A stretch of 64,000 nt of DNA from the human T2T-CHM13v2.0 reference genome, Homo sapiens. A program made the position numbers and the translations under genes. The stretch lies in NCBI RefSeq assembly GCF_009914755.1, contig NC_060938.1; one strand, 5' to 3'. Position 1 is the first letter of the stretch. Every line of letters starts with the position of its first letter. Positions 18,097 to 63,254 of the stretch are shown piece by piece. The notes beneath the pieces were generated by a model. That model worked only from the letters and a program-made list of their open reading frames with translations, had not been told where the DNA came from and ran no database searches.

Positions 18097-18350
18097 CTGC
18101 ATGTCCAGTTCAGTAGCCACTGGCCAGATGTAGCTGTCAAGAGCTTGAATGTGGCTGTTCCAAATTGACATGGACCCTATGTATATATAATGTGCACATA
18201 ATGTATATAATGTGTATATATAATTTATATAATGTGTACATAATGGAGTTTGAAGATTTAGTACAAAGAAAAGAACAGAAATTATGAATATTTCATTAAT
18301 AACATTTTACATTGATTACACATCTAAATGATAATATTGTGGACATATTC
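18097..18350 (+). mobile_element. MER33 hAT-Charlie element, 3'-truncated, with internal (TATAATGTG)-like microsatellite
   Basis: tgtcc...gtagccactggccagatgtagct...tttgaagatttagtac...attgattacac...aaatgataatattgtggacatatt. Confidence 0.8.
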
Positions 18351-18689
18351 AGTACAGGAAAGACATGATCCTTACGATGTGAAACTCCAACTGCTGCTGC
18401 TTATTTCCAAGCTCAAATCCCAGCAGCCCGTGGCTTTAGCTTCATTTATGCCTTGGGTTTCTGTTCCCTGTGGATGTTTGTCTTGCTTTTGACTGCCATG
18501 TCTGCTTTACTCTTATTTTATCTATGTCTGTCTTGCTATGTGTTTTGAGGTTGGATGGGCAAACTCAGCTTCAAAGTGTGAACTCACCCTACCGTCTCGC
18601 CCTGAAGTCGCCCATGGACTCTGTGTGCTGTCCCAGAGCTCCTGGACCCAGAAGACATTGTGCCTTTTGGCAAATGATATATGGAGACT

Positions 18690-19659: not shown

Positions 19660-19975
19660 TTCTTTTGCTTTTTATCTGTTTTATTTTTCCTTCTTAGTAC
19701 TTACTACTGTCAAACATGTAACATAACTTATTTTTTTTTTTGTTAATCTTCCTCGCTACTAGAAGGTGATTCCTAGAATAGTAGATAATGTTCTCTATTT
19801 CATGAACTGCTCTACCCCAAATGATAATATTGTGGACATATTAGGTTAAAAATATCCTTTAGGATGTGAAACCCCAATTGTTACTGCTTGATTCCAGACT
19901 CAAACCCCAAGATCTTTGAATAGCGAGGGGCATATAGTAAGCACTCAATAAATACCAGTTGAGTGGATGAATAAT
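19660..19975 (+). mobile_element. L2 3' end, interrupted by a ~90 bp local copy
   Basis: actagaaggtgattcc...aactgctctacccca [insert] ...ggcatatagtaagcactcaataaata...tggatgaat. Confidence 0.7.
19819..19910 (+). repeat. Local direct duplication A (copy of 18326-18422)
   Basis: First 24 bp identical (aaatgataatattgtggacatatt), then shared gatgtgaaac..caa..tgctt..ttcca..ctcaaa.ccca. Confidence 0.85.
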
Positions 19976-37210: not shown

Positions 37211-37838
37211 TGCCAAAATCAAAGTCCCTGTTTTTCTTTATTCAAGAGGAAGGACTGGAGTCTTAAGAGCATTTGATCATGATTCACCATTGGATCTACC
37301 CTATTTTCTTGTAAAGATAGCTGTCTCTGTAAATCGGCTGGAGTTGGCCAAACATTGAAGACCACACTGCAGGGAGAAGTCCCCCCGCCCCCCAGCTTCT
37401 GTTCCCGACTTGCACTAACCTGCCACCATCTGAAGTTGGACTCTGCTTCTTGGTTTTACTGTGAATCTTTTGCTAGCTTGTGTTGTGTGGCTCCATGACA
37501 CCAGTTCTGTCCTTACACTTCACACTCTGGGCTGTCTTCTACTTCTTTTCAAGAGTAGACTCTCTCCTCACAGTTCCAGCCCTCCAGGACCTAAATCCAG
37601 GAAGCAGCATTCTCAGCCAGCATCCCTTCTTATCCATCCTCCTCACCGCCAGCCCCCTTTGAGAGATGCTTCAAATGACTGTCATGCCCAGCCACTTAAA
37701 TGTTATCAAATAAGCTAGTTCATGCAGCATGGGCCTGAAGCTTATCTTTGCAAGTGTCCCAAACAAGTTTACCTCTTTAGTCATGAAGTCTGCCTGAAAT
37801 ATACCATGTAGACAAGAAATAAAATGTGCTTAGTGTTT

Positions 37839-38272
37839 TTAGGTTACTGCAAAAGTAATTGCTGTTTTTTTGCCATTAAAATGGCAGTAGAGATGGAGAC
37901 TACAGATTGCATGGATAACTGAAAACAAACTCACACAAGCAACCTCATTAAAAGAGAGGTGCTGGTTCATCTTCGGCACCAGACCCTTTCAGATACTAGT
38001 GATTTCCTGTGTGGGTGTCTGGCTGGACCCCAAACTCCCTACCTCTACAAACCAGTACATCTGCCTTTTTGTTAGTTGTGTTTACAAAGGTTGAGTGTTT
38101 ACATTTCAAATGCCTTGGGAGAAGAGGAAAAAACCCCTATCACCCTATTCATTCTGCAAATGCAGAATCCCCACAGGCAGAGTCCACACATAATGGGAAT
38201 TCAGTTTTTATGAATTTCCATTTTATGAATTTTTTAATGGCAAAACCAGCAATTACTTTTGCACCAATCTAA
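37839..38272. mobile_element. MADE1 (Hsmar1-derived MITE) split at its centre by captured host DNA
   Basis: Left arm ttaggttactgcaaaagtaattgctgtttttttgccatta; right arm taatggcaaaaccagcaattacttttgcaccaatctaa followed by TA. Confidence 0.9.
37888..38206 (+). repeat. Local direct duplication B (copy of 44420-44726)
   Basis: Collinear from tagagatggagacta to gcagagtccacacataatgggaattcagtt; about 85-88% identity by hand. Confidence 0.95.
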
Positions 38273-38520
38273 TAATTCATCATTATTTAGAATGTCAATG
38301 ACAGTACTGTCAGAGTGACTGTCAGAGCTACAAAGGGGGCATAGGACCATTTGATCACACACAGAAGGACACCAGGTTTTCTGTGCTTTTCAGTTCTTGT
38401 GTCACGCTATTAAATGTGTTCTTGAGTCCCTGAGTCTCTTGCTCTCAGGCTGCCATATCTGTGATTTCCGACAACTCCTCCCTTCAGGTGCCTGACTCTT
38501 CTGCAACAGCCTAAGATAAG

Positions 38521-43129: not shown

Positions 43130-44056
43130 CTCACAAGTGTATGAAAAATGCTCAGCATCACTGATCATCAGGGAAATGCAAATCAAAACCACAGTGAAAT
43201 ATCACCTCACCTGAATTAGAATAGCTATTAGCAAAAATACAACAAAGGCACACATGCTGATGTGATGTGGAAAAATGGGAACCCTTATACACTATCAGAG
43301 GGAATGTAAATTAGTATAGCCATTATGGAGAACAGTATGGAGGTTCCTCAAAATATTAAAAATAGAACTACCATATAATCCAATAATCCCACTGCTGGGT
43401 GCTTATCCAAAAGAATAGTACAAAAAGGAAGTCAGTATGTCAAATAAATATTTGCACGCCCATGTTTATTGCATCAATATTGATAGTAACCAAGACATGG
43501 AATCAACTAAAGTGTCCATCAATAGACAAATGGATAAAGAGAATGTGGTACCTATATAGAATAGAGTACTATTCGGCCATAAAAAATGAAATCCTACCAG
43601 TTGTGGCAACATGGATGAGCCTGGAGGAGTTTATATTAAGTAAAGTAAACCAGGCCTAGAAAGACAAATATCACATGATCTCACTCATTTTTGGAATTTT
43701 TAAAAACTGATCTCATTGAAGTACAGAGTAGAACAGTGGTTACTAGAGGCTGGGGATGGTGAGCAGGGAATGAGGACAGATGTATTAATGGGTACAAAAT
43801 TACAAATAGATAGGAGAAATAAGTTCTATTGTATAGTAGGATGACTTTAGTTAACAATACTGTATTGTATACTTAAAAATAACTCAGAGAGGATTTTGAA
43901 TGTTCTTGCCACACACACACACACAAAGATGAATGTTTGAGGTGATGAATTAGCTAATTCCCCTGATTTGGTCATTACACATTGTATACATGTATTGAAC
44001 ATCACACTGTATCTCGTAAGTATATACAATTATTATGTGTTAATTAAAAATAAAAT
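43130..44056 (+). mobile_element. L1MA-type 3' fragment (ORF2 end plus 3' UTR)
   Basis: catcagggaaatgcaaatcaaaaccaca...atggaggttcctcaaaa...tgatttggtcattacacattgtatacatg...aattaaaaataaaa. Confidence 0.9.
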
Positions 44057-44063
44057 ACAACTT

Positions 44064-44390
<327 letters not shown>

Positions 44391-44419
44391 TTACCTGATA
44401 CCTGATGGTCATCAGGGCA

Positions 44420-44726
44420 TAGAGATGGAGACTATGGATTGCATGGATAACTGAAAAGAAACTCACAGAAACAATTTTACAAAAAGAGAGGTACTGGTTC
44501 ATCTTCTGCACCAGACCCTTTCAGATACTAGTCATTGCCTATATGGGTGTCTGGCTGGTCCCCAAGCTTACCCCTACCTCTACTTTTTCGTTAGATGTGT
44601 CTATAAAAGTTGAGTGGTTACATTTCACATGTCTTGGCAGAAAAGGAAAAAACACGTTATCACTCTATTAATTCTGCAAATGCAGAACCTCCGCATGCAG
44701 AGTCCACACATAATGGGAATTCAGTT
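44420..44726 (+). repeat. Donor copy of duplication B
   Basis: Collinear with 37888-38206; no MADE1 arms flank it. Confidence 0.92.
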
Positions 44727-47359
44727 CCATTCCCTTTAATTAATTTGTGAATTTATTAATTTGACTTGGTGGAAAAATTGCTTAAAGATATAAACTCTAT
44801 TTGATGGCCTCTGTCACCTCCAGGGCAAAGCCCACACTTCTTCCCACTGTATTCAGGGCCCCAGTAACTGGGTATTGCCATCTTAACTAACCTCCTCTTT
44901 GACTTTGGACGACACAGATGATTTCAGTTGAGTGACACAATGCCTGGGTTCAAGGCCAGCCTGACCTAGGTAGAGGGCCCCAAGACCGATGATGGTGACT
45001 TAGCCTTGCTGAAAATCACCTTCTGGCAGCCGCTTGGCAGAGCCGGGCTTGCAATCCATCTGATTCCAAGCTGAGACTTTTGCTCTTTCCAGATAGACTT
45101 CAGGGTGATCTTGTGCATGGTAGAAACTGGTGAGGGATCTGGTTTCAGAGATTGTGGACTCACTTAGGAATAAGTGAGCTTTATGCCTTTAGCACTAAAC
45201 TAGTTGTTTCTAATGAAGCCTAGGATAGATGTCCCTGGGGTCAAGGGAAGTACGTATTCCTGACATTCTGCCTGTAGTTACTTCTCAAGCTGCTGCTCTA
45301 ACTGGGCCCCCCGGTAGCAATTGGGCTTCTCTCCATTGGTTGTATGAACATGGTCATCCATAAGAGCTCAACAGTCTATAGAGAAGGGAAAATAGTCTTA
45401 GTCTCTGGCCTCCAGAAGGTGACTATAAGTTAAAACCCTGTTGTTGCTGATTTTTTATGTTGTTGTTCTGGTCACATGCAGGTACATCTATCAGACCTTC
45501 TGTCTTGTGTTGTGCTTTTCTGGAATGTTCTGAGAATGGCTAGAATCCCTAAGCCCCTCAGCTACCACTAAGTGCCCAAACAGTTTGTTGTCCATGGGGC
45601 TGTTTGTGAGTTTAGAGTTTTCTCCATGCCTCAGAAATTTAACAGCCAAGTAACGGTGGGGACAAGGAGACAATTCTTTTTTTTTTTTTTTTTTTCTGAT
45701 ATTGCTTTGGTTTTAACTTAATGAAATAAACGTACTCCTGAAAAAAAATAAACCAAACTCAGCATTGCACACGAGAGTCCCACAGACCGACTGTCAGCTT
45801 AAACCAATCTGAAAGCTATGCCTTTTAATGCAGACATTGGACATAAAAAAGGCCTTGTGGGTCATAAAGCTCACCCCCTGCCAATATCAGAGAAGCATTG
45901 GCTGGTTTGTGTGTGTGGTGGGGGGTGAACATCTCAAATTCCCTTCCATCCAAATCAAGGGAGGCTGGGCTGAGCTCTGCCTCCCATTAGTCACGCCCTG
46001 TGGGGTGAGACGCAGCCATTGCTGGAGCTTGCAAAAGACTTCTCCTGCGCAGCCTCCATTCACAGTCCTCAGATCAAAAGGACACGACAGCATCTCCTCC
46101 ATCCCTACCTGACCCTGGACTCTGGTCAAAGTCTTGGGCATTGGTTTTGAGTCTTAGGATGGTCCATGGAATGCTCAGTATCTCCAAGAGATCCAAGCTG
46201 GGTCCCCCAGTAGCCATGGGATAGATGCACCACTCCTTCTCTGCTATTCATCACATTTATCCCACGATGATCTGGTGGAGACAAAGTCCTGCAGGTCTTT
46301 ATCTCAGCTGGAGCTTATCTCCCATCCAGCCACCTCCCCATCCAGTGGGAAATGAACCTTCTAGATCCACCTTCTAAATCATGTGCCTACATGTGGGCTA
46401 GTTTTCATCTTTTGTCTGTGTTTCGGTTGTTTATAGAGAGGGGGTGGGGAATTTCATCTTGATTTTAAAACTGCCTGCTATTTCGGGAAGGCATAGCTCA
46501 GTGTCTCTTTGTCCAGTGAGTTACTGAAATTTGACACCCTTGGAGGAATATTTTTGTCATAACCCACTGCTTGCTGCATTGTTGATCCAATTATTTGGAA
46601 CAAGCAATCTGTCATTCTATTGTTCCTTTCCAATTGTTTGACTTCGGTGGCAGTTGTAGAAAAGAATCTACTTTCAGTTTAAAAGAGGGGGTGAGGAGGG
46701 AACCTAAAAGAGCACCTCAAATGTGTATATCTTAGGTTACTGTGGACCAGAAGTCTGTGACCTGTGCACATTAAAGAGAAAAGAGTATCCTTTTAGGTAA
46801 CAAATATTCTGGAGTAAGTAAACTCAGTCATGTGTTTTGGCCACTATAGAAATAACACTTTTCCACCCAAAGCCTCTGCCAATGCACATATCCCCCTGCT
46901 ACCAAAACCCGGCAGCTTCCGAGGTCTGTTTATGTGGGATGATCTTGTTAGTTCTATTAATTAAAAAAGGTTTTTGCTCACTCTAGTTTTGCTGGAATTT
47001 AGCTGTTGCCACGTGACAAACATTGTAAATTTATGAAATTCATTATAGACACATACACATACTTCTTTAGAACCTCAAACAGGATTCTTGATCCAGGAAG
47101 AGATCTTTTCTTTCTCATTTGTAAATTTATTTATTTAACATATTAAGAAATTATAAGAATTAAATTTAACATAATTCAATGACAAAAGGATTTTTTTAAT
47201 ATTGAAGGAGAGTTTAACATTCAGAACAAAAAAAGTATGAAATAAGTAGGTATGTAAAATTATGATGAGTCTATGAAAATTCAGCACATAAACTGATCAG
47301 AGTTTTGAGTTTGCAACAACAATGAAACACTCATGGGAGTGTTTTCCAACATGGCCCTT

Positions 47360-47945
47360 GGTTGCTTTGCTAGAGTTGGAATAGCAAAGGACCACAGGCT
47401 GAGCTGGCTGGTTCGAACAACAGATAATGTATTTTCTCACAATTTGGAAGCTGAAAGTACAAGATCAAGGCGCCAGCAGGGTTGATGACCACCTCTTTTT
47501 TGCCTCTTGATGTTGTCATCATCAGTCCTCTGTGCACATGTGATCCTGGTGTCTCTCTGTGGGTCTAAATTTTCTCTTCTGATAAGGACACCAGTCATAT
47601 TAGATTGGGGCCTACACCAGTGATCCTCTTGTAACATATTATCTCTTTCAAGGGCCTATCTCCAAACAAAGTCACATTCTGAAGTACTGAAGTGGAATGA
47701 TTCTTGTCTTAGACATCATGGTATTTTGGGCTGCAGTGGTTAAGAAAGTTTCAGAAAAAAAGAGGGATATTTGCCAGGGAGACCAAAATGAACCAATACT
47801 TGGAGCAAGAAATGTCTGAATGCTGACACAGTTCTTTGGCCACAGGGAAAGGCTGATGTTTCAATTGAACATCAAATTAACTTCAGTTTACATTCAACAT
47901 AAGAATTCAACAAAAGAATTTGGGGGGACACAATTCCCCATAACA
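47360..47945 (-). mobile_element. MLT1B-like MaLR LTR, interrupted by a ~200 bp local copy
   Basis: taaggacaccagtcatattagattgggg...gtcacattctgaagtactg [insert] ttcaac..gaatttggggggacacaattccccataaca. Confidence 0.85.
47699..47896 (+). repeat. Local direct duplication C (copy of 48821-49020)
   Basis: Shared tggttaagaaagtttcagaaaaaa, gagaccaaaatgaacca.tacttggagcaagaaatg, tttggccacagggaaaggc. Confidence 0.95.
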
Positions 47946-48820: not shown

Positions 48821-49020
48821 GATCCTTGTCATAGATGTCATGGTATTTCAGGCTGCACTGGTTAAGAAAGTTTCAGAAAAAAAGGAGGAACATTTGCCAG
48901 AGAGACCAAAATGAACCAGTACTTGGAGCAAGAAATGCCTGAATGCCAACACATTTGTTTGGCCACAGGGAAAGGCCGATGTCTCAATTGAACATTAAAT
49001 TATCTTGGGTTTACATTTCA
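48821..49020 (+). repeat. Donor copy of duplication C
   Basis: Collinear with 47699-47896; continues into a MIR fragment. Confidence 0.92.
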
Positions 49021-62018: not shown

Positions 62019-62215
62019 TTCTACTTAGGGAAGAAAAATGTATTTTGTATGTGAGGCAGTGTGTGGTTGGCTGGATGGAAGCTGAGATTTTCTACCTCCA
62101 CAACCAGACTTCCAGCACTGCATCTGCCAAATACCCTCAGCAGCTGGCATGAAAGGCAATAAGCAATGTTGAGTGGCTTTCTTCTTTTTTTCCCTTTGGG
62201 TGTCTCAAAAGATTT
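62019..62215 (+). repeat. Local direct duplication D, copy 1
   Basis: Collinear with 63053-63254; 53 bp identical core at 62096-62148. Confidence 0.95.
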
Positions 62216-63052: not shown

Positions 63053-63254
63053 TTCTGCTTAGGAAAAAAAAAAATGTATTTTTGTGTGTGAGGCAGTGTG
63101 CAGTTGGCCAGACAGAAGCTGAGGCTTTTCTATCTCCACAACCAGACTTCCAGCACTGCATCTGCCAAATACCCTCAGCAGCTGGCGAGAAAGGAAGAAA
63201 GTAATGTTGAGTAGCTTTCTTCTTTTTTTCCCCGTTAGATTTCTCAAAAGATTT
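63053..63254 (+). repeat. Local direct duplication D, copy 2
   Basis: Identical core at 63134-63186. Confidence 0.95.

What the first reader, a model, noticed from the sequence alone, without database searches (positions are those of the whole stretch)
37839..38272. MADE1 mariner MITE that captured ~320 bp of neighbouring host DNA (Pack-TIR-like composite)
Seen: two inverted MADE1 arms (37839-37886 and ~38231-38272, then TA) enclose a segment collinear with unique DNA 6.5 kb downstream (44420-44726). The break is at the palindrome centre, and aatggca occurs on both sides of the cargo. There is ggca microhomology to the donor at the left join and a ttttatgaattt micro-duplication at the right join (~38207-38232). 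Established: MADE1 is an ~80 bp palindromic Hsmar1 derivative, and SETMAR binds the Hsmar1 TIR core GGTGCAAAAGTAATTGCGG; the right arm matches this at 18/19. Inference: ~12-15% divergence between copies (hand estimate) fits a capture close to the time MADE1 was active. The likely mechanism is template-switching gap repair after a transposase cut or cruciform cleavage, producing a potentially mobilisable cargo element.
Basis: partly seen in the sequence, partly recalled or inferred. Interest (0 to 1): 0.8.

Follow-up and report, generated by a model that had tools for sequence, protein, structure and literature searches.

The report
MADE1 transposon split by copied nearby DNA
An old 80-base palindromic human transposon relic was broken at its middle and patched with a ~350-base copy of unique DNA lying 6.5 kb away; this is a real but one-off example of a kind of repair scar already described in animal genomes.

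Summary
Two inverted MADE1 halves (37839-37881 and 38236-38272, then TA) enclose a segment, 37883-38238. That segment is a direct copy of 44416-44760: 83% identity with gaps, 12.6% substitutions, K2P 0.139. The cargo has only these two copies in the 3.1-Gb assembly, so it is not a repeat family. The break lies at the edge of the 4-nt loop of the MADE1 hairpin, with at most 6 of 80 bases lost. There is 2-4 bp of microhomology on the left and 4 bp (TAAT) on the right.

The kind is already published. Tan et al. 2021 described single-copy "Pack-TIRs" that lie near their parent, have microhomology at the joins and break inside the element, and explained them by transposition-independent gap filling. 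That work includes MADE1 cases. This locus is absent from their lists; it would fail their 90% identity filter and their filter against repeats beside the parent.

I found no sign that the composite ever moved. The dating (about 0.7-0.8 of mean MADE1 age) cannot show that transposase was involved. At least two other genome-unique local duplications of similar age lie in the same window, one inside a different repeat, so MADE1 may be a fragile target rather than a capturing agent.

Verdict: a real new member of a known kind, of modest interest.

The parts
37837..37838 (.). Left flank dinucleotide TT, a degenerate copy of the TA target-site duplication
   Evidence: Read. Most genomic MADE1 copies have TA at this place.
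37839..37882 (+). Left half of MADE1: consensus positions 1 to 41/42, i.e. the left TIR plus the first spacer bases. 37882 (T) stands where both MADE1 and the donor have G.
   Evidence: 3 substitutions and a 2-nt insertion against the in-session consensus.
37846..37864 (+). Hsmar1 ITR core 19-mer (SETMAR motif), 3 mismatches
   Evidence: Listed in a published ITR table as hg38 chr14:97875327-97875345.
37883..38238 (+). Cargo: a direct copy of 44416-44760. It holds an extra 11-nt repeat at 38207-38217 and lacks 12-13 nt of the donor near its right end.
38235..38238 (+). TAAT microhomology shared by the donor end and MADE1 positions 43-46 (right join)
   Evidence: observed 4 bp; P(4 bp or more) = 0.026 in 100,000 random joins.
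38236..38272 (+). Right TIR of MADE1 (consensus positions 44-80)
   Evidence: 3 substitutions in 37.
38247..38265 (-). Hsmar1 ITR core 19-mer, 1 mismatch (G18 to T)
   Evidence: Listed in a published ITR table as hg38 chr14:97875728-97875746.
38273..38274 (.). TA target-site duplication on the right
44416..44760 (+). Parental (donor) copy in unique DNA, 6.5 kb downstream, same orientation
44017..44393 (.). Alu-type repeat ending 22 bp before the donor. It is not part of the copy.
   Evidence: Masked stretch in the hub's table. There are many window-internal matches to 44046-44385. The homology does not extend into it.

Best explanation
A MADE1 element (an 80-bp palindromic Hsmar1 derivative) was already sitting at this TA site. 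It suffered a double-strand break at the apex of its hairpin or cruciform. The left 3' end, ending ...AAAAG, paired through 2-4 bases with unique DNA 6.5 kb downstream on the same or the sister chromatid. It copied about 345 nt and then re-annealed to the right half of MADE1 through TAAT.

The result is a single-copy 'Pack-TIR' made in place by microhomology-guided gap filling (SDSA or MMBIR-like template switching). No transposase was needed and the composite never moved. The 350-nt spacer now prevents hairpin formation, so the product is stable.

Shown: the anatomy, the uniqueness of the cargo, the position of the break and the microhomology. Inferred: the cause of the break, the polymerase pathway and the timing relative to Hsmar1 activity.
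For: Structure and uniqueness.

Break position: the MADE1 consensus folds as single-stranded DNA into a 38-bp stem with a 4-nt loop at positions 39-42 (-45.9 kcal/mol). The insertion lies between positions 42 and 43. Allowing for the microhomology it lies somewhere in 40-46, so 0 to 6 of 80 bases were lost.

Microhomology: 2 bp on the left (P = 0.17) and 4 bp on the right (P = 0.026).

Published class (Tan et al. 2021; main-text passages, sections 8 and 14, and Supplementary Data 4 read; Supplementary Data 1 searched):
- 56.9% of Pack-TIRs lie within 15 kb of the parent.
- 67.6% have microhomology at a breakpoint.
- The median gap is 4.6% of the TE, and breakpoints are skewed towards the inside of the element.
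- In 91 of 97 primate cases the TE is found without cargo in outgroup species.
- 22 of 33 human cases arose after DNA transposons had gone silent.

Age: the half-distance of 6.3-7.0% compares with 9.4% (8.5% outside CpG) for 29 intact MADE1 copies.

Independence from mariner: there are other genome-unique local direct duplications of the same age in the window, with K2P of 0.124 and 0.129. One of them splits a different dispersed repeat.

Fragility of the MADE1 centre in general: among 60 sampled ITR-core loci, 19 solo halves remained after I set aside 5 Hsmar1 ends and 2 Alu-split copies. 15 of the 19 end at consensus positions 40-56, and 12 of the 19 end at 40-49. 10 of 10 tested have no partner arm within 10 kb.

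Non-spaced short inverted repeats stimulate repair in mammalian cells, and spaced ones do not (PMC3300023, passages read).
Against: No orthologous sequences could be examined, so neither the order 'MADE1 first, cargo later' nor formation in place is shown directly.

The structure alone does not separate a spontaneous palindrome break from abortive gap repair after a transposase cut.

A centre hit has P of about 0.075 for a random position within 80 bp. The left microhomology is not significant on its own.

By my rough base rate (4 low-copy local pairs in this 64-kb window; 2 in 100 kb of other loci), a few such insertions would fall in MADE1 copies somewhere in the genome by chance. The MADE1 could therefore be a bystander.

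The orientation of the spacer, and hence the exact joins, is ambiguous. The perfect 14-nt inverted pair at 37868-37881 / 38232-38245 is not fully explained by either orientation.
Confidence: 0.6

Rival explanations
1. Abortive gap repair linked to transposase. While Hsmar1 was active, the MADE1 was excised or nicked. The gap was refilled from the sister chromatid from both ends. Synthesis stalled at the palindrome centre and switched to the nearby template. The composite was then a mobilisable non-autonomous element that happened never to amplify.
For: The age estimate overlaps the tail of MADE1 activity. Filler DNA from nearby templates is the classic outcome of P-element and Ac/Ds gap repair (cited by Tan et al.; the rest is recalled). 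Both TIRs were kept whole.
Against: No second copy exists in the genome. The half-distance is nominally lower than the mean MADE1 divergence. At most 6 bases were lost and the break is internal, whereas Tan et al. expect larger deletions biased towards the termini after excision. Similar duplications in the window do not involve mariner ends.
Confidence: 0.25
2. The composite formed elsewhere, for instance next to the donor, and hopped here as a unit: a true transposed Pack-TIR moved by mariner local hopping.
For: Flanking TT...TA is compatible with a TA duplication. The donor is only 6.5 kb away.
Against: No MADE1 arm or ITR core lies near the donor: only 2 core matches exist in the whole window. 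It is a single copy in the genome. Multicopy or transposed Pack-TIRs are reported as distal to the parent, not close to it.
Confidence: 0.07
3. RNA-mediated or L1-mediated insertion of a donor transcript at the TTAAAA site in the MADE1 centre. That site is a common Alu target.
For: Alu insertions with target duplications spanning the MADE1 centre were seen in L014, L049 and L075. A 7-nt direct repeat AATGGCA flanks the cargo.
Against: There is no poly-A or poly-T at either end of the cargo in either orientation, and homology to the donor runs up to both joins. GGCA of the left 'repeat' is present in the donor itself. No gene is annotated at the donor (hub table).
Confidence: 0.03
4. Chance or artefact: the cargo and the 'donor' are independent copies of an old repeat family, or the arms are not MADE1.
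For: None found.
Against: plus the positive control.
Confidence: 0.02

Closest known systems
Single-copy Pack-TIRs of animals (Tan et al. 2021, Nat Commun, PMC8277862)
   Same: Host DNA of 100-5000 bp lies between two pieces of one TIR element. There is a single copy and the parent lies within 15 kb on the same chromosome. Microhomology marks the joins, the gap in the TE is tiny and the breakpoint is internal. MADE1 cases are listed: 7 rows in Supplementary Data 1, one of them human (PTPRE intron copied into the PVT1 intron).
   Different: This case is older: 83% identity with gaps and 87% counting substitutions only, against their BLAT cut-off of 90%. An Alu lies 22 bp from the parent, which their filter excludes. 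It is not among their 33 human cases, and no coordinate starting 9787, 9788, 9834 or 9835 occurs in their 12 held supplementary files. The cargo is intergenic and carries no gene fragment.
Pack-MULEs of plants, and filler DNA in P-element and Ac/Ds derivatives (abortive gap repair)
   Same: Terminal inverted repeats enclose copied host DNA. Template switching at short homologies is the proposed mechanism.
   Different: Those elements are often multicopy, mobile and made during active transposition. Here there is one copy and no evidence of movement. This comparison rests partly on recall and on what Tan et al. cite.
Centre-break revision of palindromes, and templated insertions at double-strand breaks (MMBIR, polymerase-theta end joining)
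   Same: The break is at the apex of a short non-spaced inverted repeat. The insertion destroys the hairpin potential, the filler is templated and the joins have short microhomology.
   Different: Templated inserts from end joining are usually tens of bases long; this one is about 350 nt. I saw the centre-break literature only as passages in PMC3300023 and as search listings.
Intact MADE1 / mir-548 hairpin loci
   Same: The same TIRs, and the same SETMAR core motif on the right arm at 18/19.
   Different: The hairpin is split by about 350 nt. No Rfam mir-548 match was found: only two sub-threshold chance hits to unrelated snoRNA models.

Membership tests
MADE1 (Hsmar1-derived MITE) | Terminal inverted repeats that carry the Hsmar1 ITR core 19-mer | tested here: met
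   3 mismatches (left) and 1 mismatch (right), the only 2 matches in the window, against 0.02 in shuffles. Both are listed in the published ITR_10854 table.
MADE1 (Hsmar1-derived MITE) | Arms align with the 37-nt TIRs of the 80-bp palindromic consensus, including the MADE1-type inner end (...GCCATT / AATGGC...) | tested here: met
   Consensus built from 10 genomic copies. The arms have 3 substitutions plus a 2-nt insertion in 41, and 3 substitutions in 37. The element is interrupted at the spacer.
MADE1 (Hsmar1-derived MITE) | TA target-site duplication | tested here: inconclusive
   TA on the right, TT on the left. One substitution would account for the difference.
Pack-TIR as defined by the pipeline of Tan et al. 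2021 | Internal sequence of 100-5000 bp flanked by two pieces of the same TIR element, each covering at least 10 bp of the consensus termini | tested here: met
   356 nt between arms that reach consensus positions 1 and 80. Criteria read.
Pack-TIR as defined by the pipeline of Tan et al. 2021 | A unique parental copy elsewhere, with a length ratio of 80-120% | tested here: met
   Exactly one other genomic copy. 356 against 345 nt.
Pack-TIR as defined by the pipeline of Tan et al. 2021 | At least 90% identity to the parental copy (a recency filter) | tested here: not met
   83.1% with gaps and 87.4% counting substitutions only. This filter selects young cases. It does not define the mechanism.
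Pack-TIR as defined by the pipeline of Tan et al. 2021 | No TE within 100 bp of the parental copy | tested here: not met
   An Alu-type repeat ends at 44393, 22 bp before the donor (hub mask). The homology does not extend into it.
Mobilised (multicopy) Pack-TIR | Two or more TIR-flanked copies of the same cargo | tested here: not met
   Only one TIR-flanked copy in this genome. Other primate genomes could not be searched.
L1-mediated (target-primed) insertion | A poly-A tail next to one target-site duplication | tested here: not met
   No A or T tract at either join that is not also in the donor.
mir-548 precursor (Rfam) | A match to the covariance model | tested here: not met
   no mir-548 hit at E up to 1.

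The most novel reading that the evidence does not exclude
The apex of the MADE1 palindrome is a recurrent germline break point in primate evolution. Most of the thousands of solo Hsmar1 ITRs would then be products of centre breaks, and this locus would be a rare case in which the break was patched with a long copy templated in cis instead of losing one arm.

If that is so, about 2,700 paired and 5,000 solo ITRs form a natural, datable series of palindrome-break repair outcomes.
Probability: 0.3. Interest if true: 0.5.

Novelty: new member of a known kind. Interest (0 to 1): 0.25.

Why it matters
On its own the locus adds one older, previously unlisted MADE1 case to the catalogue of Pack-TIRs. 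It shows that the published 90% identity filter and the clean-parent filter hide such cases.

It is a tidy textbook example: 0 to 6 bases lost, a break at the hairpin loop, microhomology at both joins and a parent 6.5 kb away. No gene is annotated in the window (hub table) and no function was tested.

The wider point worth testing is whether short perfect palindromes such as MADE1 are preferred break sites. My small sample of solo halves ending at the centre points that way.

Tried and rejected
(1) Repeat-family origin of the cargo: rejected (positive control).

(2) L1 or retrocopy origin: rejected, because there is no poly-A.

(3) AATGGCA as a 7-bp target duplication of another transposon: rejected. 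The cargo has no terminal inverted repeats. The donor copy has no matching flanking duplication. GGCA is present in the donor.

(4) Rfam scan for a mir-548 hairpin: nothing found, only chance sub-threshold snoRNA hits.

(5) Search for other split MADE1 copies with host cargo.
- Among 60 ITR-core loci, none had a partner arm at 60-1500 bp apart from 2 full-length Hsmar1 pairs. With a more sensitive alignment, one Alu-split copy also appeared (L049).
- From the position lists, which show only the first 100 places each, I followed three close core pairs. They proved to be an Alu-split MADE1 (L075), a MADE1 with internal repeated pieces (L076) and a half element next to another MADE1 (L077). None carries host cargo.
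- This sample is too small to estimate a rate.

(6) Extension of homology past 38206 by local alignment alone was weak: 37 of 2000 random pieces and 97 of 2000 shuffles scored as high. The 17-mer test settled it.

(7) SETMAR binding: both arms are in the published motif table, but no entry of the peak sheets starts with 9787. No SETMAR-HA peak is therefore listed within hg38 chr14:97.87-97.88 Mb in that study. I did not read which cells were used.

(8) Orthologs in other primates: no tool holds them.

(10) Literature searches for a described MADE1 capture at this locus or a similar account found only Tan et al.. Searches gave general context only.

Full report
WHAT IS THERE

The window is C14:92,070,001-92,134,000 of a 3.1-Gb assembly that could be searched whole. 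This agrees with the hub's label.

At 37839-38272 two inverted arms enclose about 356 nt.
- blastn pairs 37836-37881 with 38275-38232 at 84.8% over 46 columns.
- The repeat finder gives a 34-nt pair at 85% and a perfect 14-nt pair, 37868-37881 / 38232-38245.
- The Hsmar1 ITR core 19-mer quoted in the finding occurs only twice in the window at up to 3 mismatches, once in each arm, facing inward. Shuffles give 0.02.

To avoid relying on memory I fetched 30 genomic places that carry the exact core. There are 781 in the genome and 0 for the reversed control. From 10 intact copies I built an 80-nt consensus: 37-nt TIRs and a 6-nt spacer, flanked by TA. Against it the left arm has 3 substitutions and a 2-nt insertion in 41 positions. 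The right arm has 3 substitutions in 37. The arms are MADE1.

THE CARGO

37883-38206 matches 44416-44726 in the same orientation at 83.1% over 325 columns, E 7e-94. Nothing else in 37700-38420 has a match in the window. Counting substitutions only, 39 of 310 positions differ (24 transitions, 15 transversions, 2 of them at CpG; K2P 0.139 +/- 0.022).

The copy runs on beyond the core.
- After TTCAGTT the element has an extra 11-nt repeat.
- Then comes CCATT, as in the donor.
- It lacks 12-13 donor bases.
- Then it matches the donor again: the 17-mer at 38222-38238 has only three matches at up to 2 mismatches in the 64 kb, and one is 44744-44760.
- A plain local alignment of this AT-rich tail was only weakly significant.

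The donor is therefore 44416-44760.

NOT A REPEAT FAMILY

- The cargo finds only itself and the donor in the whole genome (2 candidates, 2 scored).
- The donor with 1 kb of flank finds the same two places.
- A 24-mer that is identical in both copies finds, at up to 3 mismatches, the two copies plus one hit, against one hit for the reversed control.
- A 30-mer finds the two copies only.
- The tool warns that very common words are skipped. However, it returned 40 dispersed hits for a real repeat, so it does report families of moderate copy number.

THE JOINS

As single-stranded DNA the MADE1 consensus folds into a 38-bp stem with a 4-nt loop at positions 39-42 (-45.9 kcal/mol).

Take the spacer in the orientation that needs the fewest later changes.
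- MADE1 positions 1-42 lie to the left of the cargo and 43-80 to the right.
- The left join shares AG with the donor. 37882 now reads T where both MADE1 and the donor have G.
- The right join shares TAAT.

In 100,000 simulated random joins of donor-region and MADE1 positions, microhomology of 2 bp or more occurs with frequency 0.17, and of 4 bp or more with frequency 0.026.

If the shared bases are credited to the donor, at most 6 of 80 MADE1 bases were lost. The other spacer orientation is possible but leaves 3-4 bases at the left join unexplained. It is better read as MADE1 bases plus the donor's own GGCA than as a target-site duplication.

MECHANISMS REJECTED

- An L1-mediated retrocopy would leave a poly-A next to a duplication. 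There is none in either orientation, although the MADE1 centre is clearly a favoured Alu target: L014, L049 and L075 each show target duplications spanning the centre.
- A second transposon as cargo is excluded, because the cargo has no terminal repeats and the donor copy has no flanking duplication.

WHAT IS KNOWN

Tan et al. 2021 (PMC8277862) defined Pack-TIRs in 100 animal genomes. I read main-text passages, sections 8 and 14, and Supplementary Data 4, and searched Supplementary Data 1.

They report:
- 33 human cases.
- 56.9% of cases lie within 15 kb of the parent.
- Microhomology is present at 67.6%.
- The median loss is 4.6% of the TE, and breakpoints are skewed towards the inside.
- 91 of 97 primate cases have the bare TE in outgroup species.
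- 22 of 33 human cases arose after DNA transposons fell silent.

They conclude that most single-copy cases arise by transposition-independent gap filling at fragile sites.

MADE1 appears in 7 rows of their Supplementary Data 1. One is human: PTPRE intron copied into the PVT1 intron.

The present locus is not in their human list. None of its hg38 or hg19 coordinate prefixes occurs in their 12 held supplementary files. It would fail their BLAT identity cut-off of 90% and their rule that no TE lies within 100 bp of the parent. They mention 199 human candidates under relaxed criteria, but I found no list of these.

AGE

In 29 distinct intact MADE1 copies, positions 27-80 differ from the consensus at 143 of 1523 sites (9.4% overall; 8.5% outside CpG). 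These positions were not used to select the copies. Tan et al. give 0.10 for MADE1.

Half the cargo-donor distance is 6.3% raw, or 7.0% by K2P. That is about 0.7-0.8 of the mean MADE1 age, with a counting error of about 16%. The capture is thus no older than the MADE1 burst and is nominally younger. This does not decide whether transposase was still active.

MOBILITY AND BINDING

There is one TIR-flanked copy only.

Both arms are listed among 10,854 ITR motif sites in Miskei et al. 2021 (PMC8327481), at hg38 chr14:97,875,327-345 and 97,875,728-746. No entry of their peak sheets begins with 9787. The same paper counts 5,252 solo ITRs and 2,679 paired MADE1 copies.

IS MADE1 THE AGENT OR THE TARGET?

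A self-comparison of the whole window finds four low-copy local direct pairs:
- the present one;
- 47699-47894 / 48821-49017 (K2P 0.124);
- 62019-62215 / 63053-63254 (K2P 0.129);
- 18326-18422 / 19819-19909 (K2P 0.177; its uniqueness was not checked).

The second and third are unique in the genome. In the second, the upstream copy interrupts a dispersed repeat. Two copies of that repeat elsewhere run straight across the break point (L078, L079). I could not name the family with the tools; it is not MADE1. Copying of a few hundred bases from 1-7 kb downstream therefore happened repeatedly here without mariner ends.

In 100 kb of other loci I found 2 such low-copy pairs, not verified genome-wide. 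The process seems general. A handful of hits in MADE1 copies genome-wide could be chance, and a central hit has P of about 0.075.

Against pure chance stands the sample of MADE1 copies. Of 60 ITR-core loci, 32 arms lie in intact elements, 2 pair at about 1.2 kb (full-length Hsmar1) and 26 lack a partner within 1.5 kb.

From those 26 I dropped 5 that continue into Hsmar1 internal sequence, judged by eye against the two full-length pairs, and 2 that are split by Alu. Of the 19 solo halves that remain:
- 15 end at consensus positions 40-56;
- 12 end at 40-49;
- the 4 outside 40-56 end at 27, 37, 74 and 74.

None of the 10 tested has a partner arm within 10 kb: best alignment scores were 16-23, against 16-21 for a reversed-arm control.

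Short non-spaced inverted repeats are known to provoke repair in mammalian cells (PMC3300023, passages read).

VERDICT

The best reading is an in-place, microhomology-guided templated repair of a break at the MADE1 hairpin apex, which left a single-copy Pack-TIR that never moved (0.6). The main rival is the same repair triggered by Hsmar1 excision (0.25).

It is a new, older member of a published kind. It has no evident function, and its interest is modest.

Noticed in passing
window 47691-47894 and 48821-49017: A second genome-unique local direct duplication (197 columns, 88%, K2P 0.124). The upstream copy interrupts a dispersed repeat between ...GTACTGA and TTCAACATA..., and two copies of that repeat elsewhere (L078, L079) are continuous across that point. 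It is the same kind of event as the MADE1 case but in a different, unnamed repeat.
   Followed up: partly
window 62019-62215 and 63053-63254: A third genome-unique local direct duplication (202 columns, 86%, K2P 0.129). Both copies have unique flanks, so the direction of copying is unknown.
   Followed up: partly
window 18326-18422 and 19819-19909: A fourth low-copy local direct pair (98 columns, 78%, K2P 0.177). Its genome-wide uniqueness was not checked. All four pairs have statistically indistinguishable divergence and none is younger than K2P 0.12.
   Followed up: no
loci L008-L071 (G000 chromosome 1 samples of the ITR core): Solo MADE1 halves are common, and their homology to the consensus ends near the palindrome centre: 15 of 19 at positions 40-56. 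10 of 10 tested have no partner arm within 10 kb. Solo ITRs are counted in print (5,252; PMC8327481). I did not see the clustering of their ends at the apex described, and I ran no dedicated search for it.
   Followed up: partly
L014, L049, L075: Alu elements are inserted at the MADE1 centre with target duplications that span the spacer (two successive Alus in L014). The central TTAAAA-like spacer looks like a favoured L1-endonuclease target.
   Followed up: partly
L076 (G000:C2:72762386-72762516) and L077 (G000:C1:107544086-107544190): L076 is a MADE1 whose interior holds repeated pieces of its own inner arm and spacer, as if made by repeated template slippage at the centre. L077 is a 37-nt half MADE1 followed 3 nt later by another MADE1 start.
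   Followed up: no
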